The position numbers were made by a program, and so were the translations under genes. Under the pieces are notes generated by a model that saw only the letters and a list, made by a program, of their open reading frames with translations, ran no database searches and was not told the origin of the DNA. From IMG/VR virus record IMGVR_UViG_2617270955_000003: a stretch of 20,009 nucleotides of DNA, one strand, 5' to 3'. The number at the start of each line of letters is the position of its first letter. The first letter of the stretch is position 1. This DNA is from a virus. Taxonomy: Duplodnaviria > Heunggongvirae > Uroviricota > Caudoviricetes. This document shows positions 13,031 through 19,569 of the stretch, piece after piece.

Positions 13031-13630
13031 ATGCGTAAATTATGTGCTGTTATTCTATCCGCAGTAGTCTGGCTGGTTGCCGCTGGTACGCCAGCGAGCG
13101 CAGCAGAGCATCAGTCCACACTAAGCGCCGGGTATCTTCAGACCCATACTGATATGCCAGGCAGTGATGACCTGAAGGGCATTAACGTGAAATACCGTTA
13201 TGAATTTACGGACACGCTGGGGCTGGTGACGTCATTCAGTTATGCCAATGCCAAAGATGAGCAAAAAACGCATTACAGCGATACCCGCTGGCATGAAGAT
13301 TCAGTGCGTAACCGCTGGTTCAGCATGATGGCGGGGCCATCTGTACGCGTGAATGAATGGTTCAGTGCTTATGCGATGGCAGGTGTGGCTTACAGCCGTG
13401 TTTCGACGTTCTCCGGGGATTATCTCCGCGTAACTGACAACAAGGGGAAAACGCACGATGTGCTGACCGGAAGTGATGACGATCGCCACAGCAACACGTC
13501 TCTGGCGTGGGGAGCTGGCGTGCAGTTTAACCCGACCGAATCCGTGGCCATTGATATTGCTTATGAAGGCTCCGGCAGTGGCGACTGGCGCACTGACGGT
13601 TTCATCGTGGGTGTCGGTTATAAGTTCTGA
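13031..13630 (+). CDS. lom: Lom outer membrane protein (Ail/OmpX/PagC family)
   Basis: 199 aa; signal peptide MRKLCAVILSAVVWLVAAGTPASA; beta-barrel OMP signature with C-terminal ...GFIVGVGYKF; GAGAGG RBS; same position as lambda lom. Confidence 0.95.
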   Translation: MRKLCAVILSAVVWLVAAGTPASAAEHQSTLSAGYLQTHTDMPGSDDLKGINVKYRYEFTDTLGLVTSFSYANAKDEQKTHYSDTRWHEDSVRNRWFSMMAGPSVRVNEWFSAYAMAGVAYSRVSTFSGDYLRVTDNKGKTHDVLTGSDDDRHSNTSLAWGAGVQFNPTESVAIDIAYEGSGSGDWRTDGFIVGVGYKF

Positions 13631-13686: not shown

Positions 13687-14397
13687 CACAGAAAACCCCC
13701 AGCTAGGCTGGGGGTTCCGGAAAGCTTTCAGCTTTAAGCCAGTTATTAAAACCCCTTTTGATTTGTTAAAACACCTTGCGGTCTGGCAACTGCAAGTGTC
13801 AAACAAGAAATCAAAAGGGGGTCCCAATGGGGAACGAAAAGAGCTTAGCGCACACCCGATGGAACTGTAAATATCACATAGTTTTTGCGCCAAAATACCG
13901 AAGACAGGTGTTCTACAGAGAGAAGCGTAGAGCAATAGGCAGTATTTTGAGAAAGCTGTGTGAGTGGAAAAGTGTACGGATTCTGGAAGCTGAATGCTGT
14001 GCAGATCATATCCATATGCTTGTGGAGATCCCGCCCAAAATGAGCGTATCCGGCTTTATGGGATATCTGAAAGGGAAAAGCAGTCTGATGCTTTACGAGC
14101 AGTTTGGTGATTTGAAATTCAAATACAGGAACAGGGAGTTCTGGTGCAGAGGGTACTACGTCGATACGGTGGGTAAGAACACGGCGAAGATACAGGATTA
14201 CATAAAGCACCAGCTTGAAGAGGATAAAATGGGAGAGCAGTTATCGATTCCCTATCCGGGCAGCCCGTTTACGGGCCGTAAGTAACGAAGTTGGATGCAA
14301 ATGTCAGATCGTGTGCGCCTGTTAGGGCGCGGCTGGTAAGAGAGCCTTATAGGCGCATTTGAAAAACCTCCGGCTATGCCGGAGGATATTTATTGTG
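13687..14397 (+). mobile_element. IS200-family insertion sequence (IS200/IS605 family), about 0.7 kb, boundaries approximate
   Basis: Contains an IS200-type TnpA gene; left end carries an 8-bp-stem hairpin (CCCCCAGC-TAG-GCTGGGGG, 13696..13714); element sits where lambda has only about 10 bp between the lom terminator and the stf start; length fits IS200 (about 707 bp). Confidence 0.7.
13827..14285 (+). CDS. tnpA: IS200-family transposase TnpA (HUH single-strand transposase)
   Basis: 152 aa from ATG 13827 (MGNEKSLAHTRWNCKYHIVFAPKYRR...); HUH motif in ...CADHIHMLVEIPP...; the track start at 13776 is an upstream in-frame extension. Confidence 0.9.
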   Translation: MGNEKSLAHTRWNCKYHIVFAPKYRRQVFYREKRRAIGSILRKLCEWKSVRILEAECCADHIHMLVEIPPKMSVSGFMGYLKGKSSLMLYEQFGDLKFKYRNREFWCRGYYVDTVGKNTAKIQDYIKHQLEEDKMGEQLSIPYPGSPFTGRK

Positions 14398-14405
14398 GAG
14401 TGGAT

Positions 14406-16784
14406 ATGGCAGCAGTAAAAATCTCAGGTGTGCTGAAAGATGGTGCGGGAAAACCAATACAGAACTGCACTATTCAACTGAAGGCAAAGCGTAACAGCAC
14501 CACGGTACTGGTGAACACGGTGGCTTCTGAAAATCCGGATGAAGCCGGACGTTACAGCATGGATGTTGAGCATGGTCAGTACAGCGTCACCCTGCTGGTT
14601 GAAGGTTTTCCGCCTTCACATGCCGGGACCATTACCGTCTATGAAGGTTCCAGACCAGGTACGCTGAATGATTTTCTCGGTGCCATGACGGAGGATGATG
14701 TCCGACCGGAGGCACTGCGCCGCTTTGAGCAGATGGTGGAAGAAGCGGCACGCAACGCTGAAGCCGCCTCTCAGAGCGCAGCGGCGGCAAAGAAATCCGA
14801 AACTGCAGCGGCATCATCGAAGAACGCGGCGAAAACCTCAGAAACGAATGCAGCTAACAGCGCACAGGCGGCAGCGACCTCAAAGACTGCATCGGCAAAC
14901 TCCGCGACAGCAGCCAAAAAATCAGAAACCAACGCGAAAAATAGCGAGACAGCCGCAAAGACGAGCGAAACCAACGCAAAGTCCAGCCAGACGGCAGCGA
15001 AAACCAGCGAAACGAATGCCAAAGCCAGTGAAACTGCGGCAAAAAACAGCCAGGTTGCAGCAGCCCAAAGCGAGAGCGCGGCAGCCGGTTCTGCGACTTC
15101 AGCAGCTGGATCAGCAACTGCTGCGGCTAACAGCCGGAAAGCTGCGAAGACGAGTGAAACTAACGCAAAGTCCAGCCAGACGGCAGCGAAGACCAGCGAA
15201 ACGAATGCCAAAGCCAGCGAAACTGCGGCGAAAAACAGTCAGGATGCAGCAGCCCAAAGCGAGAGTGCTGCAGCTGGTTCTGCAAGCGCGGCGGCTGCTT
15301 CTGCCACTGCATCAGCCAACAGTCAAAAAGCAGCAAAAACCAGTGAAACCAATGCAAAGACAAGCGAGACTGCAGCGGCGAACTCGGCGAAAGCATCCGC
15401 TGCAAGCCAGACCGCTGCAAAAGCAAGTGAAGACGCAGCCAGAGAGTATGCAAGCCAGGCAGCAGATCCGTATAAATATGTCTTACAGCCGCTGCCTGAT
15501 GTGTGGATACCGTTTAACGATTCACTGGATATGATTACGGGCTTTTCGCCATCATATAAAAAGATTGTTATTGGTGACGACGAAATAACGATGCCTGGCG
15601 ACAAGATTGTTAAGTTTAAACGTGCATCGAAAGCAACCTATATTAACAAATCTGGTGTGCTGACAGAGGCTGCCATTGATGAGCCACGATTTGAACGTGA
15701 TGGCCTGCTTATTGAGGGGCAAAGAACTAATCTTCTGCTTAATTCAACAAATCCATCTAAATGGAATAAGTCAGGCAATCTGGAACTCACAGAAATATCC
15801 ACGGATTCTTTTAATTTTACTTATGGGAGATTTACTGTAAAAGATACTCTTATTGGTCAGACAAGTGCTATTAATATCGTAACGATTTCTGGCAGTAAAG
15901 GGTTTGATGTCACAGGTGATGAAAAATATGTGACCATTTCATGCCGTGTAAGAAGTGATGTTGAAAATATAAGGTGTCGTTTAAGATTTGAACACCATGA
16001 TGGTTATACTTACACTTTTTTGGGAGATGCTTACCTCAATTTATCAACACTTGTAATTGATAAAACTGGTACTGCTGCAGACCGTATTATTGCAAAGGCT
16101 GTAAAAGATGAGGTTACTGGTTGGATTTTCTATCAGGCTACAATTAATGCACTAGATACAGAGAGCATGATTGGTGCGATGGTTCAATACGCTCCTGTAA
16201 AAGGTTCAGGTACAGCATCTGGAGACTATCTGGATATCGCAACTCCACAAGTGGAAGGTGGATCAAGTGCTTCGTCATTTATTGTAACTGATATAACTGC
16301 AAGCACTCGCGCAAGCGATATGGTGACAGTCCCAATCAAGAATAACCTTTATAATCTTCCTTTTACGGTTCTTTGTGAGGTACATAAGAACTGGTATAAA
16401 ACGCCAAATGCAGCACCGCGTGTTTTTGATACCGGCGGTCATCAAACCGGAGCGGCTATTATTCTTGGCTTCGGTCGTTCAACAGATTACGACGGATTTC
16501 CTTATTGTGATATAGGTTTGGCTAACAGACGGGTAAACGAAAACGCATCGCTTGAAAAAATGGTTATGGGGATGCGTGTAAAGTCAGATCAGTCTACGTG
16601 CTCAGTAAGTAACGGGCGTATATCCAGCGAAAAGAAAGCCACATGGTCCTATATTCAGAACTCCGCAATTATCCGTATTGGAGGCCAGACTACAGCCGGG
16701 TTGCGTCATTTATTTGGTCATGTCAGGAATTTCAGAATATGGCACAAGGCATTGACTGATGCTCAGATGGGGGAGTCAATCTAA
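14406..16784 (+). CDS. stf: Side tail fibre protein (lambda Stf-like N-terminus, repetitive Ala/Ser/Thr shaft, divergent AT-rich C-terminal domain)
   Basis: ATG 14406 gives MAAVKISGVLKDGAGKPIQNCTIQLKAKRNSTT..., matching the lambda Stf N-terminus as recalled; the track start at 14376 falls in the IS200 end region. Confidence 0.9.
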   Translation: MAAVKISGVLKDGAGKPIQNCTIQLKAKRNSTTVLVNTVASENPDEAGRYSMDVEHGQYSVTLLVEGFPPSHAGTITVYEGSRPGTLNDFLGAMTEDDVRPEALRRFEQMVEEAARNAEAASQSAAAAKKSETAAASSKNAAKTSETNAANSAQAAATSKTASANSATAAKKSETNAKNSETAAKTSETNAKSSQTAAKTSETNAKASETAAKNSQVAAAQSESAAAGSATSAAGSATAAANSRKAAKTSETNAKSSQTAAKTSETNAKASETAAKNSQDAAAQSESAAAGSASAAAASATASANSQKAAKTSETNAKTSETAAANSAKASAASQTAAKASEDAAREYASQAADPYKYVLQPLPDVWIPFNDSLDMITGFSPSYKKIVIGDDEITMPGDKIVKFKRASKATYINKSGVLTEAAIDEPRFERDGLLIEGQRTNLLLNSTNPSKWNKSGNLELTEISTDSFNFTYGRFTVKDTLIGQTSAINIVTISGSKGFDVTGDEKYVTISCRVRSDVENIRCRLRFEHHDGYTYTFLGDAYLNLSTLVIDKTGTAADRIIAKAVKDEVTGWIFYQATINALDTESMIGAMVQYAPVKGSGTASGDYLDIATPQVEGGSSASSFIVTDITASTRASDMVTVPIKNNLYNLPFTVLCEVHKNWYKTPNAAPRVFDTGGHQTGAAIILGFGRSTDYDGFPYCDIGLANRRVNENASLEKMVMGMRVKSDQSTCSVSNGRISSEKKATWSYIQNSAIIRIGGQTTAGLRHLFGHVRNFRIWHKALTDAQMGESI
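14953..15283 (+). repeat. Tandem in-frame duplication of about 189 bp (63 codons) in the stf shaft
   Basis: Segments 14953..15094 and 15142..15283 are near-identical at offset 189 bp (...GTCCAGCCAGACGGCAGCGAA.ACCAGCGAAACGAATGCCAAAGCCAG.GAAACTGCGGC...), encoding repeated AAKTSETNAKSSQTAAKTSETNAKASETAAKNSQ. Confidence 0.85.
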
Positions 16785-17065
16785 TGAAAGATTTAACACT
16801 CAAATTTGCAGACAGGGCCGACTTTTCGGCCTTTATGGATAGCATTGGCTATTATGATGACGAGTCGATGCAGGATGATATTCTTATTGACGTGATAGGT
16901 AACGTGTACAAAGAAACCGGAGAACTGACTGAAGATGGCGAACCGGTATGTGTTAAGGAAGATGGATATTATGTAAACGTGCGCATCATTAATGATGCAA
17001 AAAAATCGTCAATATTCGATGAATACGCGGTTGTAGTTGAACATCAACTTCGTGGCTGGATGTGA
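16784..17065 (+). CDS. Hypothetical small acidic protein (93 aa), translationally coupled to stf
   Basis: ATG overlaps the stf stop (TAATG); AT-rich like the stf 3' half; occupies the position where lambda has tfa but does not resemble Tfa. Confidence 0.55.
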   Translation: MKDLTLKFADRADFSAFMDSIGYYDDESMQDDILIDVIGNVYKETGELTEDGEPVCVKEDGYYVNVRIINDAKKSSIFDEYAVVVEHQLRGWM

Positions 17066-17074
17066 GGGAGACAA

Positions 17075-17779
17075 ATGGCTACATCGACAGTAATTCCAGG
17101 AGACATCACCACGTTAAAGGGAGATGTCAGTAAAGCCAAGGAAGATATTTCCTCAATTAACGGAAAAGTATCAACGCTTCAGGCTGATATGACCAGTGCA
17201 AAGCAGGATATCAGCACCAGATACACAAAAACTGAAGTTGATAATAAGCTGAAAAACAAACTGGAAGTGAACGCTCTGGAAAGCGGTCGTTATGGTGGAG
17301 ATTTTTACCCGTTGACTGGCCGTGAAGCGTTTTATTTGTGGGGATTGGGCACGACTACAGCGGCGGCAAACCTTTATCTTAATCCTGACCCCGCAATTTC
17401 GTCTGTGCTGCGGTCAACATCGTCTATCCGCTATAAACATTCAGTAGAGACAATAGATTCAGAGCACGCCGATCTCATTTTCAGGATGCGCCCTGTGTGG
17501 TACAGGTCACAATGCGAAAATGACAGGCGTGACTGGGGATTCTACGGATTGATTGCCGAGGAAGTAGGAGAAATTGCCCCTCAGTTTGTACACTGGCGAC
17601 CAGCTAACGAAGATGATGCACCGGAAGCTATTTCCAGCAATGGCCTTGTTGCCGAAGGTGTAATGTACGAACGTCTGGTTGTTCCACTGATTCACCATAT
17701 CCAGAAGCTGACTGAAAGAGTTGATGAACTTGAGTCAGAATTAAAGTTGTTATCCGTTTCCCGAAGCGATATCGGATAA
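17075..17779 (+). CDS. Tail-fibre-like protein with C-terminal intramolecular-chaperone (peptidase S74-like) domain
   Basis: 234 aa; GGGAG RBS; N-terminal periodic coiled-coil-like segment; C-terminal ...SSIRYKHSVETIDSEHADLIFRMRPVWY...WGFYGLIAEEVGEIAPQFV...NGLVAEGVMYERLVVPLIHHIQKLTERVDELESELK resembles the autoproteolytic chaperone domains of phage fibres and tailspikes. Confidence 0.65.
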   Translation: MATSTVIPGDITTLKGDVSKAKEDISSINGKVSTLQADMTSAKQDISTRYTKTEVDNKLKNKLEVNALESGRYGGDFYPLTGREAFYLWGLGTTTAAANLYLNPDPAISSVLRSTSSIRYKHSVETIDSEHADLIFRMRPVWYRSQCENDRRDWGFYGLIAEEVGEIAPQFVHWRPANEDDAPEAISSNGLVAEGVMYERLVVPLIHHIQKLTERVDELESELKLLSVSRSDIG

Positions 17780-17789
17780 AGGAGGAGTA

Positions 17790-18077
17790 ATGGATATAAG
17801 CCCCTTACTTCATGCACTTTGTGCTGTGGCTGCGCAAACACTGGTTGGTCTTTTTACCGGAAACTGGGCTTACGGAGCGATAGCCGGTTGTACGTTCTTC
17901 ATTGCGCGTGAACACACCCAGGCAGAATATCGCTGGATCGAAATGTTCGGGCATGGCAAGCGAATGAATATGCCGTGGTGGGGCGGTTTTGATCCGCGCG
18001 CGTGGGATGTGACAAGCCTGATGGATTTTGCTGTGCCGGTGGTGGCGTGTCTGCTGATCTGGATGTTGATCCGTTAA
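17790..18077 (+). CDS. Hypothetical small membrane protein (95 aa, 2-3 predicted TM segments)
   Basis: Strong RBS AAGGAGGAG 7 nt upstream; hydrophobic N-terminal and C-terminal segments; last gene before attP. Confidence 0.6.
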   Translation: MDISPLLHALCAVAAQTLVGLFTGNWAYGAIAGCTFFIAREHTQAEYRWIEMFGHGKRMNMPWWGGFDPRAWDVTSLMDFAVPVVACLLIWMLIR

Positions 18078-18084
18078 ATATAAA

Positions 18085-18120
18085 AGCCGCAGTAACTTGC
18101 CATGATAGGATACTGCGGCT
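18085..18120 (+). repeat. Inverted repeat / hairpin downstream of the membrane-protein ORF
   Basis: AGCCGCAGTA ... TACTGCGGCT (10-bp arms, 16-nt loop); no following T-tract, so terminator function is uncertain. Confidence 0.3.
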
Positions 18121-18317
18121 GGCTGGTTAACTTTCGATAGTGCGAGTATTGAATGATTTCCAGCCGTTACTGATTTTATATAACGGCAGTGGAATTATTC
18201 AACACACAGGCAAAACACAGGCAAAACGGAATAAGCTGAGAAAAAAAGCGTGCTTTCCCAATCTGGGGCAAATCACGTCTGAATGACACCTGAAAACAGG
18301 TGGTGGACTCAAGAAGG

Positions 18318-18395
18318 CTTGGAATATTCTTCTTTAATGTTATGTAATTCATTGATTTTTCGTGTACGATTTTAAGACATTTATTCCAAGAAGAA
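18318..18395 (+). promoter_or_regulatory. Candidate integrase arm-type binding sites (P arm): one direct and one inverted CTTGGAATA motif
   Basis: CTTGGAATATTCTTC at 18318..18332 and its inverted relative TTATTCCAAGAAGAA at 18381..18395, upstream of the tRNA-like core. Confidence 0.5.
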
Positions 18396-18429
18396 TTTTT
18401 AACTCTTTGATTTTTCTACTCTGTATCAT

Positions 18430-18491
18430 CGGTCTCGAAAACCGGAGTGGGGGCAACTCCACCGGGGGTTCAAATCCCCCTCTCTCCGCCA
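18430..18491 (+). tRNA. Partial tRNA-Ser(CGA) (serU-like) 3' segment, anticodon stem to CCA; probable att core
   Basis: Anticodon loop CTCGAAA (anticodon CGA), long variable arm, T-arm GGGGG-TTCAAAT-CCCCC, acceptor 3' strand TCTCTCC, discriminator G and CCA at 18489..18491; no matching 5' acceptor/D-arm upstream, so not a complete gene. Confidence 0.75.
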
Positions 18492-18536
18492 AAATTCAAT
18501 CACTTACACATCATTAAGTCAGTGACAAAAATCACA

Positions 18537-18572
18537 CTTGGAATTACTTGGAATATTTTCTTGGAATATTTT
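18537..18572 (+). promoter_or_regulatory. Candidate integrase arm-type binding sites (P' arm): three direct CTTGGAAT(T/A) repeats
   Basis: CTTGGAATTA (18537..18546), CTTGGAATATTTT (18547..18559), CTTGGAATATTTT (18560..18572); they overlap the last about 10 codons of int. Confidence 0.55.
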
Positions 18573-19569
18573 CAGGTAACGGGACATCAAGTGTTGGTGA
18601 AACTTTAACCTTCCTGTCATAGATTAGCACTTGCCCTTCGGTTTTGTGACCAGAGAAAAGTTGCTTATCCCGGCTGCTTCCTTCATAGTCTGAAATTCCT
18701 TTCGCCTTCAGATCATGAAAGGTGAAGTCGGTTAAAATACCTGAAATTTTTCCAGCACGATTTCTTGCATCTACCCACATTTCGTTAAAGCCTTTGTACA
18801 TATATCGGTTGCCGTATTGATTGCTGATCACATAGGCAGATTTTGGTAACTGTTTTGCTTTTTCGATCGCTGCCTGTAATCGTGGACTCCATGCTTTTAT
18901 CTGTTTTTTTCCGGTTTTCCCTTGCTGGATGAATATCCCGTCGTTTCCAATCTGTTCCCATTTCAGCGATAACACATCGGAAACCCTCGCTGCACACAGA
19001 TAGGCAATTTCCATTGCGATAAAAACAGGAAGAGGTGCAACGCTTAATACTGCCTGGTATTCTTTGTCGGTTACATATCGTTCGCGGTTTTTGGCCTTGA
19101 ATTTACTTACACCTGCACATGGGTTAGCCTTCACGTACCCTCGCTCATACCCCCAACTGTAAACACGGGACATACTGCTTTTTTCATGGTTGGCTTGCGT
19201 TTTACTCTGCTCCCCTCTTTTGTCCATGTATCGACGGATGTGTTCTGGTTTTATGGAATCCGCTGGTACCTTACCGAATACGGCAAGCAACTTTTTTTGA
19301 TGTTGCAGATAATCTTTTTGTGTTCTTGGACTAAGGTCACTGTAATAGGCGCTGGCGAGGAATTTTTCCCACAAGCGACCGAATGTCATTGCACGATCGC
19401 GATTATTTACAGTTTCCTCATACTTTTTCCATAAAGCAGCTAAACCATCCTTGATGGCGGTTAGTGTGACAGATTCTCTGGATGTTGGTTTCCATACATA
19501 ACTATATTTATTTGGGTATACATTTGGAGGTAATTTTTCGTGTTCAGGATTTTTCCTTCGTCTTCCCAT
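18544..19569 (-). CDS. int: Tyrosine integrase (lambda Int family)
   Basis: 341 aa; lambda-like arm-binding N-terminus MGRRRKNPEHEKLPPNVY; catalytic-region signatures ...HDLKAKG... and ...GHKTEGQVLIYDRK (candidate Tyr); adjacent to attP; start overlaps the xis-like stop (TGATG). Confidence 0.95.
   Translation of the reverse strand: MGRRRKNPEHEKLPPNVYPNKYSYVWKPTSRESVTLTAIKDGLAALWKKYEETVNNRDRAMTFGRLWEKFLASAYYSDLSPRTQKDYLQHQKKLLAVFGKVPADSIKPEHIRRYMDKRGEQSKTQANHEKSSMSRVYSWGYERGYVKANPCAGVSKFKAKNRERYVTDKEYQAVLSVAPLPVFIAMEIAYLCAARVSDVLSLKWEQIGNDGIFIQQGKTGKKQIKAWSPRLQAAIEKAKQLPKSAYVISNQYGNRYMYKGFNEMWVDARNRAGKISGILTDFTFHDLKAKGISDYEGSSRDKQLFSGHKTEGQVLIYDRKVKVSPTLDVPLPENIPRKYSK

What the first reader, a model, noticed from the sequence alone, without database searches (positions are those of the whole stretch)
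17790..18078. Small membrane protein with a near-consensus RBS as the last gene before attP
A 95-aa protein with hydrophobic segments at both ends and a strongly basic C-terminal tail, preceded by AAGGAGGAG. The region between tail fibre genes and attP is the classic lambdoid cargo (moron) position, where lysogenic-conversion and superinfection-exclusion functions are often found. The family is unrecognised, so this is the best place in the window to look for an undescribed function.
Basis: inference. Interest (0 to 1): 0.5.

Follow-up and report, generated by a model that had tools for sequence, protein, structure and literature searches.

The report
Conserved unknown membrane protein ending tail-fibre operon
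The 95-residue gene is real and encodes a three-helix membrane protein of a widespread but uncharacterised family that travels with phage tail-fibre genes (about a third of complete E. coli genomes carry it, often in several copies); what it does is still unknown.

Summary
The ORF (17790..18077, +, 95 aa) and its AAGGAGGAG ribosome-binding site are real. It is the last gene before an attP that overlaps the 3' end of tRNA-Ser. The "strongly basic C-terminal tail" is not there: the protein ends in a single Arg.

The gene is under purifying selection (dN/dS 0.16 overall, 0.04 in the central loop). It belongs to PHROG 1443, "unknown function". It has no Pfam, NCBIfam, PADLOC or PDB relative and no informative fold match. 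AlphaFold2 (pLDDT 93.6) gives a tight two-helix N-terminal hairpin, a nearly invariant Arg/Trp/acidic loop (AREHTQAEYRWI...GKRxNMPWWGGFDxRxW) and a C-terminal helix.

Its conserved linkage is to tail-fibre or tailspike genes, not to attP. It sits 9-15 nt after a fibre or chaperone-like gene in E. coli lambdoid prophages, and inside tail modules in P2-like, P22-like, jumbo, beta-, alpha- and deltaproteobacterial phages. Sphingomonadales carry chromosomal, non-prophage copies.

In this window it has no promoter of its own, so it is not a textbook moron. My best guess is a non-essential envelope-acting accessory protein of the exclusion or anti-readsorption type, made here with the late tail-fibre transcript. 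Confidence in that function is low.

The parts
17779..17787 (+). Ribosome-binding site AAGGAGGAG. It overlaps the last base of the upstream stop codon and lies 2 nt before the ATG.
   Evidence: Sequence read directly. AAGGAGG-type sites are conserved before the gene in 70+ of 80 related E. coli loci.
17790..18077 (+). Gene for a 95-aa three-helix membrane protein of PHROG 1443. A UniRef entry calls it 'Ybl63'; elsewhere it is 'hypothetical protein'.
   Evidence: ORF. PHROG match E = 9.5e-57. dN/dS 0.16. AlphaFold2 pLDDT 93.6. Source names.
17799..17906 (+). N-terminal helical hairpin (residues 4-23 and 26-39) joined by a 2-residue turn (G24-N25). G20, G24 and G29 are conserved, and His8 is nearly invariant.
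17907..18017 (+). Ultra-conserved polar/aromatic loop, residues 40-76: AREHTQAEYRWI..GKRxNMPWWGGFDxRxW. R40 is invariant across the whole family. A45, E46, Y47, W49, R58, P62, G65 and G66 are invariant among closer relatives. It is inferred to face the periplasm at the membrane interface.
   Evidence: Alignments A1 and A3. dN/dS 0.04. Topology inference.
18018..18071 (+). C-terminal transmembrane helix (residues 77-94), followed by a single Arg.
18075..18120 (-). Hairpin (arms 18085-18094 and 18111-18120) followed on the minus strand by TTTTATATTT, which overlaps the gene's stop codon. It is a terminator-like element for leftward transcripts from int or attP. On the + strand it has no T-run.
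   Evidence: Sequence. RNA fold -19.3 kcal/mol, z = -2.1. It is part of the mosaic module in some phages, where homology extends to about 18180.
17075..17779 (+). Upstream gene: a 234-aa short tail-fibre protein with a C-terminal endosialidase-type (Peptidase_S74) intramolecular chaperone domain. Its stop codon is 10 nt before the membrane-protein gene.
   Evidence: Pfam PF13884 E = 4.4e-06. PHROG tail-fibre families.
16784..17065 (+). A 93-aa acidic protein (PHROG 1361, unknown function). It is the usual immediate upstream partner of the membrane-protein gene in other lambdoid prophages, and is possibly a short fibre chaperone.
   Evidence: It is the upstream neighbour in 45 of 80 loci. Also seen in phage 21 and BL21 Rac.
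14376..16784 (+). Side tail fibre (802 aa) with the prophage tail-fibre N-terminal domain. It is the first gene of the fibre block that the membrane-protein gene closes.
   Evidence: Pfam PF08400 E = 2.6e-67.
18318..18570 (+). attP region. It holds the 3' ~62 nt of tRNA-Ser (18430-18491), flanked by three exact CTTGGAATATT repeats (18318, 18547, 18560) that are probable integrase arm sites. The prophage/host junction lies at or before 18506.

Best explanation
Shown:
- The gene encodes a small inner-membrane protein of a conserved, uncharacterised family.
- It moves between phages as a compact RBS-ORF cassette attached to the 3' end of receptor-binding (tail-fibre or tailspike) gene blocks.
- It is dispensable: lambda lacks it.

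Inferred for this phage:
- It is transcribed and translated as the last cistron of the late tail-fibre transcript.
- It inserts with the N-terminus out and the C-terminus in.
- It therefore presents its nearly invariant Arg/Trp/acidic loop at the periplasmic face of the inner membrane.

Best guess at function (inferred, low confidence): the loop engages an envelope component that is itself conserved across Proteobacteria. Candidates are a lipid-linked sugar-phosphate carrier or a conserved envelope protein. This makes the infected or lysogenic cell a poorer target for phage entry or re-adsorption. That would be an exclusion or anti-readsorption accessory function analogous in logic, not in sequence, to HK97 gp15, T4 Imm or the RBP-linked Llp and Cor genes.
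For: Real, selected gene:
- PHROG 1443 match, E = 9.5e-57.
- 575 homologues and 426 clusters at 50% identity. The 150 listed are all small stand-alone proteins of 58-146 aa.
- dN/dS 0.16 overall and 0.04 in the loop.

Membrane protein: three helices at pLDDT 93.6 and the hydropathy profile.

Cassette behaviour:
- Homology with other phages starts at window 17778 and ends at 18068 or about 18180.
- The P22-like phage Gally keeps a ~94-nt relic of the upstream fibre gene.

Coupling to fibre genes:
- 10-nt gap here.
- 9-15 nt gaps in all 70 classifiable loci of 80 E. coli loci.
- No + strand promoter in the window.

Linkage to RBP genes in unrelated phage types: phage 21, phiHAP-1, P22-likes, a jumbo Aeromonas phage, Aeromonas 4_4512, and Chelativorans, Desulfovibrio, Halomonas, Comamonas, Pantoea and Leclercia prophages.

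Positions it occupies are known accessory-gene sites:
- The P2 fun(Z) slot between the fibre genes and gene FI.
- Between the tailspike gene and attP/int in P22-like phages. From my own knowledge this is where P22 keeps gtrABC.

Non-essential: absent after tfa in lambda.

Topology (N-out, C-in):
- One homologue carries a lipoprotein signal peptide before helix 1.
- Long C-tails are basic, with K+R 2.95 against D+E 0.88 in 82 sequences.
- Some variants carry a ~45-aa acidic insertion in the loop.

Link to temperate lifestyle or host benefit:
- The copy is degenerate, with an in-frame stop, in the virulent phage 6947 group.
- It is intact in the decayed Rac prophage of E. coli B, where stf and tfa are truncated.
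Against: - No experiment or expression data exist, and no literature mentions the family.
- Known exclusion proteins diverge fast and are lineage-restricted. This loop is nearly invariant from alpha- to gammaproteobacteria.
- E. coli genomes carry a median of 2 and up to 7 copies. Phages carrying the gene therefore evidently establish themselves in cells that already have it. This argues against broad exclusion of lambdoid phages by a lysogen-expressed product.
- Sphingomonadales have copies in housekeeping contexts, next to ligA, prmA, cyclophilin, ftsZ and CFA synthase. This implies a cellular function that need not concern phages.
- Topology is not settled. The loop holds about 5.5 K/R, which by the positive-inside rule alone would place it in the cytoplasm.
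- PADLOC finds nothing.
Confidence: 0.3

Rival explanations
1. Envelope-glycan or lipid-carrier modulator (lysogenic conversion in the broad sense). The conserved Arg/Trp loop would bind undecaprenyl-(pyro)phosphate-linked sugars or another lipid-linked envelope precursor at the periplasmic leaflet. That would alter O-antigen, capsule or exopolysaccharide display, which is the usual receptor class of the neighbouring fibres and tailspikes.
For: - The gene is linked to fibres and tailspikes. These include S74-chaperone fibres and P22-type tailspikes, which typically bind polysaccharides.
- In P22-like phages it sits between tailspike and int, once next to an OafA-type O-acetylase.
- A universal lipid-linked target would explain the cross-class conservation and the chromosomal copies in exopolysaccharide-producing Sphingomonadales.
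- The conserved Arg and Trp residues lie at a membrane interface.
Against: - No similarity to GtrA, acyltransferase-3, Wzy or WaaL families, or to any other family.
- No partner genes travel with it.
- It is very small for an enzyme, and no metal or catalytic motif is conserved (His42 becomes Ile or Gln in many members).
- There is no promoter for lysogen expression here.
- Multiple copies per genome are redundant for a host-level trait.
Confidence: 0.2
2. Lysis-related membrane protein (holin-like, antiholin or lysis-timing accessory) made at the end of the late fibre transcript. T4 provides the precedent: its holin gene t directly follows fibre genes 37 and 38.
For: - Its size and predicted three-helix N-out/C-in topology match class I holins, and distant homologues have basic C-tails.
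- It has the same operon position as T4 t.
- It is coupled to late genes.
- Every phage keeping its own copy fits a function within the lytic programme.
Against: - It was not seen next to an endolysin in the contexts examined.
- From my own knowledge, phage 21 has its own S21/R21 lysis cassette.
- A 35-residue, near-invariant loop is unlike holins, which are poorly conserved with short loops.
- It lacks a dual-start motif.
- hhalign against T4 holin gives probability 0.07%.
- Only 1 of 125 members gives a weak Phage_holin_8 hit.
- Chromosomal copies sit beside housekeeping genes.
Confidence: 0.1
3. A general membrane-homeostasis protein of cellular origin that phages merely carry. It would be a hitch-hiker at a recombination-prone module boundary, with no phage-specific role.
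For: - Sphingomonadales have chromosomal, non-prophage copies in varied housekeeping contexts.
- The mosaic joints are flush with the ORF.
- The gene is dispensable in lambda and decays in a virulent lineage.
Against: - There is strong purifying selection within phage copies.
- It recurs in the same position relative to RBP genes in at least six unrelated phage groups and four proteobacterial classes.
- It is found in 35% of complete E. coli genomes, almost always full length.
Confidence: 0.15
4. A virion-associated or assembly-associated factor. Examples would be a membrane-inserting ejection protein, or a membrane tether for fibre assembly whose conserved loop faces the cytoplasm (N-in, C-out topology).
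For: - It is embedded within structural operons, next to internal-virion or DNA-transfer genes in a Halomonas prophage and in Aeromonas 4_4512.
- The loop's K/R count favours the cytoplasm by the positive-inside rule.
- It often pairs with a small acidic protein, PHROG 1361/18574.
Against: - No similarity to any structural PHROG.
- The neighbouring RBPs are highly diverse while this protein is nearly constant.
- Chromosomal sphingomonad copies have no phage genes nearby.
- A signal-peptide-bearing homologue and the basic C-tails point to N-out/C-in.
Confidence: 0.05

Closest known systems
HK97 gp15 (moron-encoded inner-membrane superinfection-exclusion protein inside the tail gene cluster)
   Same: Both are small hydrophobic proteins encoded among the tail genes of a lambdoid phage. 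Both are non-essential accessory genes, and both are inserted as compact units.
   Different: - No sequence relationship: hhalign probability 0.4%.
- gp15 is 62 aa and is annotated with its own flanking terminators as a moron.
- This gene is 95 aa with a large conserved loop and no own promoter here.
- It follows fibre genes rather than the tape-measure chaperones, and it is conserved across proteobacterial classes.
T4 Imm / P22 SieA type inner-membrane exclusion proteins
   Same: Both are small polytopic inner-membrane proteins of phages that could act on incoming phage DNA transfer. This resemblance rests on my own knowledge and was not tested by sequence here.
   Different: Those proteins are lineage-restricted and are expressed early or from the prophage. 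This family is ultra-conserved, is coupled to late genes here, and also occurs in bacterial chromosomes. Homology was not tested because the sequences were not retrieved.
Receptor-binding-protein-linked exclusion genes (T5 llp next to oad; cor next to tail genes in phi80, N15 and mEp167)
   Same: The genetic logic matches: a small envelope protein gene physically linked to, and exchanged together with, the receptor-binding module.
   Different: Llp and Cor are outer-membrane-directed lipoproteins specific for FhuA. This protein is a three-helix integral membrane protein whose sequence does not co-vary with the very different neighbouring RBPs. The 'IAGC' at residues 31-34 resembles a lipobox, but it lies mid-helix, has no basic n-region, and is lost in alphaproteobacterial members.
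P2 fun(Z) locus and the P22 tailspike-int conversion locus (accessory-gene hot spots)
   Same: The phiHAP-1 homologue occupies the slot between the fibre-assembly gene and the sheath gene, where P2 carries fun(Z). P22-like coliphages carry the gene between tailspike and int.
   Different: The similarity is in position only. Fun(Z) is a 528-aa protein on the opposite strand, and the Gtr and Oac enzymes are unrelated families.
T4 holin gene t (last gene of the 37-38-t late fibre transcript); class I holins
   Same: The operon order matches: RBP, then chaperone, then membrane protein, with a gap of about 20 nt. The predicted three-helix N-out/C-in layout resembles class I holins.
   Different: There is no homology and no endolysin neighbour. 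The loop is long and invariant, which is unlike holins. The basic tail is absent in the window protein.

Membership tests
PHROG 1443 (phage protein family, function unknown) | Full-length match to the family profile | tested here: met
   E = 9.5e-57, residues 1-95 on profile positions 1-95 of 97.
Moron (autonomous accessory transcription unit in a phage genome) | A discrete insertion relative to related phages, with joints flush with the unit | tested here: met
   Homology to many phages begins at window 17778 and ends at 18068 or about 18180. Lambda has no such gene after tfa.
Moron (autonomous accessory transcription unit in a phage genome) | Own promoter immediately upstream | tested here: not met
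   The gap to the upstream gene is 10 nt, and no + strand sigma-70-like site lies in 16700-18600. This was a consensus scan only, so a weak or embedded promoter is not excluded. In the P22-like phage Gally, a terminator and a promoter-like site do precede the gene.
Moron (autonomous accessory transcription unit in a phage genome) | Own factor-independent terminator downstream | tested here: inconclusive
   A 10-bp-stem hairpin lies at 18085-18120, but its T-run is on the minus strand. The scan found no + strand terminator.
Moron (autonomous accessory transcription unit in a phage genome) | Base composition different from its neighbours | tested here: inconclusive
   GC is 0.53 over the gene, against 0.44-0.50 upstream and 0.39 downstream. 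The shift is modest and is expected for an Ala/Gly/Trp-rich membrane protein.
Moron (autonomous accessory transcription unit in a phage genome) | Expressed from the repressed prophage | not testable with these tools
   No transcript data are available, and literature searches found nothing.
Inner-membrane superinfection-exclusion proteins (HK97 gp15 type) | Sequence or profile similarity to gp15 | tested here: not met
   hhalign probability 0.4%.
Inner-membrane superinfection-exclusion proteins (HK97 gp15 type) | Blocks entry of superinfecting phage DNA when expressed | not testable with these tools
   This needs plating and DNA-entry assays.
Known anti-phage defence systems (PADLOC-DB) | Match to any defence-protein model | tested here: not met
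   No family matched at E up to 1.
Class I holin | Three transmembrane helices, N-out and C-in | tested here: inconclusive
   Three helices are predicted. The orientation is inferred from a signal-peptide-bearing homologue and from basic C-tails, but the loop's K/R count argues the other way.
Class I holin | Highly charged, basic cytoplasmic C-terminal tail | tested here: not met
   There is a single terminal Arg in the window protein. The tail is present only in distant homologues.
Class I holin | Encoded next to an endolysin or within a lysis cassette | tested here: not met
   The neighbours are tail-fibre, tailspike or tail genes in every phage context inspected.
Class I holin | Match to a holin family profile | tested here: not met
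   The window protein has no holin hit. One of 125 members has a sub-threshold Phage_holin_8 hit. T4 holin by hhalign gives 0.07%.
O-antigen modification proteins (GtrA flippase, acyltransferase-3/Oac) | Match to the GtrA-like or Acyl_transf_3 Pfam models | tested here: not met
   No such hits for the window protein or for 125 family members.
Exclusion lipoproteins (Cor / Llp type) | Lipoprotein signal peptide: basic n-region, hydrophobic core and lipobox Cys | tested here: not met
   IAGC at residues 31-34 resembles a lipobox. However, the N-terminus has no K/R, the Cys lies inside helix 2 of a confident model, and the Cys is absent from alphaproteobacterial members.

The most novel reading that the evidence does not exclude
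The family could be a minimal (~95-aa, probably oligomeric) membrane module. Its invariant periplasmic Arg/Trp/acidic loop would bind or process a universal lipid-linked envelope intermediate. Temperate phages of Proteobacteria would have captured it from a cellular (Sphingomonadales-type) gene and fused it to the end of their receptor-binding operons. Its role there would be to remodel the producer cell's envelope late in infection. That would make it a new class of phage 'release / anti-readsorption' factor, distinct from all known exclusion, conversion and lysis proteins.
Probability: 0.12. Interest if true: 0.75.

Novelty: new member of a known kind. Interest (0 to 1): 0.45.

Why it matters
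- The gene is one of the commonest unexplained prophage genes in E. coli. 1886 of 5426 complete genomes carry it, with a median of two copies and up to seven. Laboratory B strains (C41/BL21 lineage) carry it too.
- Its central loop is conserved across four proteobacterial classes, which points to a precise and still unknown molecular target in the cell envelope.
- It travels with receptor-binding modules. Its function therefore bears on how temperate phages manage adsorption, superinfection and release.
- It also bears on phage engineering, because tail-fibre cassettes are swapped to retarget phages.
- It is small, non-essential and, I believe, absent from K-12 and lambda, so simple gain- and loss-of-function experiments are feasible.

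Tried and rejected
Database and structure searches
- Sequence families: Pfam, NCBIfam and PADLOC gave nothing for the window protein.
- A Pfam scan of 125 diverse members gave only sub-threshold hits to TM hairpins: PhoR_N in 9 of 125 (best E 0.0015) and VirB3 in 5 of 125. I regard these as compositional.
- PDB sequence profiles (A1, A3) gave no hit.
- The afdb50 library was unavailable.
- The exhaustive profile search found only small stand-alone homologues and no multidomain relative from which to borrow a function.

Genomic context and literature
- Guilt by association in Sphingomonadales failed. The neighbours are unrelated housekeeping genes with no conserved operon partner: ligA, prmA, cyclophilin, a PhyH-like dioxygenase, ftsZ and CFA synthase.
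- One look-up of encoding contigs (P0092) landed at a contig end and told nothing.
- Literature searches on accessions, 'Ybl63', PHROG and FIG identifiers, and topic words found nothing relevant.
- The Alteromonas 'chaperone cap' papers were checked for a membrane-anchored fibre chaperone. They contain none.

Readings considered and rejected
- Lipoprotein, based on 'IAGC'.
- Homology to HK97 gp15 or to T4 holin.
- A metal site through His42, because that residue is not conserved.
Full report
**Observation**

The window holds an ATG ORF at 17790..18077 (+) encoding 95 aa. AAGGAGGAG lies at 17779-17787, directly after the TAA (17777-17779) of the preceding gene and two bases before the ATG.

Hydropathy shows hydrophobic stretches at residues 1-39 and 77-95 around a polar centre. 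The C-terminus is ...ACLLIWMLIR, with one basic residue, and the protein's pI is 6.2. The 'strongly basic tail' is therefore not in this sequence.

Downstream there is no ORF of 60 aa or more before the attachment region. The evidence that this region is attP:
- Window 18430-18491 matches the 3' ~62 nt of a chromosomal tRNA-Ser gene found in virtually every E. coli genome. ARAGORN finds no complete tRNA, and Rfam sees only a T-arm/acceptor-like fragment.
- Three exact CTTGGAATATT repeats flank it; none of 100 shuffles gave three.
- An integrated copy of this same phage in E. coli 4/0 is 99.9% identical from window 11790 up to 18506 and then runs into host DNA near zinT.
- The integrase gene follows at 18544..19569 on the minus strand.

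The gene is thus the last gene before attP, and it would be the terminal gene of the prophage.

**Is it a real gene?**

Yes, on four lines of evidence:
- It matches PHROG 1443 ('unknown function') end to end at E = 9.5e-57.
- A word-indexed search returned 575 homologues, all about 95-100 aa, all 'hypothetical', none with a Pfam domain. One UniRef entry calls the identical protein 'Ybl63'.
- An exhaustive profile search of 1.84 billion cluster representatives found 426 clusters. The 150 listed are all small stand-alone proteins.
- Among 40 distinct E. coli alleles, dN/dS is 0.16 overall, 0.23-0.29 in the helices and 0.04 in residues 40-76.

**Anatomy**

AlphaFold2 with an 89-sequence alignment gives a confident model (pLDDT 93.6, pTM 0.75). 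Its helices span residues 4-23, 26-52 and 74-94, with short turns between 53 and 73. Helices 1 and 2 form a tight hairpin through G24-N25, with conserved G20, G24 and G29.

The segment from residue 39 to 72, AREHTQAEYRWI..FGxGKRxNMPWWGGFDxRxW, is almost invariant:
- R40, A45, E46, Y47, W49, R58, P62, G65 and G66 are invariant in alignment A1.
- H8, E41, Q44, W72 and P83 stay at 90% or more even in a 125-sequence alignment of 50%-identity cluster representatives, where R40 is the only invariant column.
- His42 is replaced by Ile or Gln in many members, so a simple His/Glu metal site is unlikely.

**Topology (inference)**

Evidence for N-out, periplasmic loop, C-in:
- One homologue (P0157) carries a textbook lipoprotein signal peptide (MKRLLAAILICSQLVGC) before helix 1, which puts the core's N-terminus outside.
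- Homologues with C-tails of 8 or more residues have basic tails: K+R 2.95 against D+E 0.88 in 82 sequences.
- Three variants have a ~45-aa acidic insertion in the loop.
- The depositors' TMHMM note for phage 21 also puts the centre outside.

Against this, the loop holds about 5.5 K/R, balanced by about 4.5 D/E. The orientation is therefore likely but not proven.

**Surroundings in the window**

The gene closes a block of four co-oriented, tightly packed genes:
- An 802-aa side tail fibre (phage_tail_N, E = 2.6e-67).
- A 93-aa acidic protein (PHROG 1361, unknown function).
- A 234-aa short fibre with an endosialidase-type intramolecular chaperone domain (Peptidase_S74).
- The membrane protein.

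The gap before the membrane-protein gene is 10 nt. A consensus scan finds no + strand promoter and no + strand terminator in 16700-18600. The hairpin after the gene (18085-18120) has its T-run (TTTTATATTT) on the minus strand, overlapping the stop codon. It therefore looks like a terminator for leftward transcripts from int/att, the position of lambda tI/sib (my own knowledge). GC content is only modestly higher than in the flanks.

On sequence grounds, the gene here is the last cistron of the late fibre transcript, not an autonomous promoter-gene-terminator moron.

**Related loci**

Abundance:
- In the phage collection the protein is found in 72 records, mostly wild lambdoid coliphages including phage 21 and mEp460.
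- In complete E. coli genomes the DNA occurs in 1886 of 5426 genomes. The median is 2 and the maximum 7 copies per genome, and almost all copies are full length.
- This includes the decayed Rac prophage of the B-strain derivative C41(DE3). There stf and tfa are truncated, but the 92-aa and 97-aa genes are intact.

Local context in E. coli:
- In 80 E. coli IMG/VR loci the upstream neighbour is the PHROG 1361-type 93-aa gene in 45 and the 234-aa S74 fibre gene in 25.
- The gaps are 9-15 nt, and an AAGGAGG-type RBS precedes the gene.
- Homology between this window and other phages typically starts at 17778 and ends at 18068 or about 18180. The unit exchanged is thus RBS-ORF, with or without the hairpin.

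The neighbouring RBPs differ widely while this protein stays about 85% or more identical within lambdoids (85-98%) and 77-85% in P22-like phages. It therefore does not co-vary with receptor specificity.

Contexts outside lambdoid phages:
- Halomonas phage phiHAP-1 (P2-like tail): right after the fibre-assembly gene and before the sheath gene. This is the slot where P2 carries the conversion gene fun(Z).
- P22-like coliphages: between tailspike and int. In Gally it follows a strong terminator and a promoter-like site, and retains a ~94-nt relic of the lambdoid upstream fibre gene. In 611R6 it follows an OafA-type acetylase.
- Jumbo Aeromonas phages: just upstream of a tail-fibre gene.
- Aeromonas 4_4512: inside the structural operon.
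- Chelativorans, Desulfovibrio, Halomonas, Comamonas, Pantoea and Leclercia prophages: within one or two genes of tail or tail-fibre proteins.
- The virulent phage 6947 group: only a degenerate copy with an in-frame stop remains after an S74-type fibre gene.
- Lambda has no such gene after tfa.
- Sphingomonadales: the homologues lie in ordinary chromosomal contexts with no phage genes and no constant partner. Their neighbours include ligA (upstream in four species), prmA, cyclophilin, a PhyH-like dioxygenase, ftsZ and CFA synthase.

**Function**

Nothing known matches:
- Pfam, NCBIfam and PADLOC gave no hit for the window protein.
- A Pfam scan of 125 diverse members gave only sub-threshold TM-hairpin hits.
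- PDB sequence profiles gave no hit.
- hhalign against HK97 gp15 and T4 holin was negative.
- Literature searches found nothing.

What the evidence supports is an integral membrane protein whose functional surface is the invariant loop. It is non-essential, is exchanged with receptor-binding modules, and in this phage is made with late proteins.

The extreme conservation from alpha- to gammaproteobacteria and the chromosomal orthologues argue that the target is a conserved envelope molecule, not a fast-evolving phage or receptor protein.

The multiple copies per genome argue that each phage benefits from its own copy, which points to a role in the lytic programme. They also argue against strong lysogen-expressed exclusion of lambdoid phages.

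Two observations hint instead at value during lysogeny. The copy has decayed in a virulent lineage, and it has been retained in a cryptic prophage.

These signals conflict, so I rank the readings with low confidence:
- Envelope-acting exclusion or anti-readsorption accessory function: 0.30.
- Modulation of lipid-linked glycan or receptor display: 0.20.
- A carried cellular membrane-homeostasis protein with no phage-specific role: 0.15.
- A lysis-related role: 0.10. T4 places its holin in the same operon position, but no endolysin neighbour was seen in the contexts examined here.
- A virion or assembly role: 0.05.

**Verdict**

The gene is a fibre-operon-linked cassette of a broadly conserved family, not a typical attP-side moron.

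It is a new, uncharacterised member of the known kind 'small accessory membrane proteins of temperate phages'. Interest is moderate. It rests on three things: abundance, the unusually conserved loop, and experimental tractability.

Noticed in passing
window 16784..17065 (+): A 93-aa acidic protein (PHROG 1361, unknown function, no Pfam) sits between the side tail fibre and the next fibre gene. A relative (PHROG 1361/18574) is the immediate upstream partner of the membrane-protein gene in 45 of 80 E. coli loci, and also in Comamonas and Pantoea prophages. It may be a short fibre chaperone, or a functional partner of the membrane protein.
   Followed up: partly
window 17075..17779 (+): This 234-aa protein has an N-terminal ~32 residues matching tail-fibre N-termini (PHROG 4563) and a C-terminal Peptidase_S74 intramolecular chaperone domain. 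It looks like a second, short receptor-binding fibre that could branch from the 802-aa side fibre. Alternative versions (for example 346 aa in L087) occupy the same slot.
   Followed up: partly
window 13827..14285 (+): An IS200-family transposase gene lies between lom (13031..13630) and the side tail fibre gene. I inferred this from the 99.9%-identical prophage in E. coli 4/0, where it is annotated as IS200C tnpA. It sits in the path of late transcription toward the fibre block and the membrane-protein gene.
   Followed up: partly
window 14650..15550 (+): The side tail fibre has a long Ala/Ser/Thr/Lys-rich repeat region (AAKTSETNAK-type units) with a very strong AT skew (up to 0.66). There are internal ~240-nt direct repeats of about 83% identity (14948-15188 against 15137-15377).
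   Followed up: no
window 18075..18120 (-): A hairpin with a 10-bp stem is followed by TTTTATATTT on the minus strand, overlapping the stop codon of the membrane-protein gene. It is a likely terminator for leftward int/att transcripts, analogous in position to lambda tI/sib. In the prophage it would also stop transcription entering from the host flank.
   Followed up: partly
window 18318..18570: Three exact CTTGGAATATT repeats (18318, 18547, 18560) flank the tRNA-Ser-derived core (18430-18491). They are probable integrase arm-type binding sites. The prophage/host junction in E. coli 4/0 maps to 18506 or earlier, next to zinT.
   Followed up: partly
L158 3965..4165 (Escherichia phage 6947 and four related records): An unannotated, degenerate copy of the family follows the S74-type tail-fibre gene of a virulent siphophage group. 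Its N-terminal half is lost and it has an in-frame stop (...SLLD*LVPV...). This is evidence that fibre modules are exchanged between temperate and virulent phages.
   Followed up: yes
L088 (contig assigned to a Collinsella MAG): A 2.8-kb contig binned as Collinsella (Actinomycetota) carries the E. coli-type fibre and membrane-protein genes at 92% protein identity. This is almost certainly a binning contaminant, not a Gram-positive occurrence of the family.
   Followed up: no
P0148, P0191, P0249 (family variants, 140-146 aa): A subgroup has a ~45-residue acidic, Tyr/Trp-rich insertion inside the conserved loop, between 'FG' and 'GxRxNMPWWGG'. The loop can therefore host an extra soluble element.
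   Followed up: no
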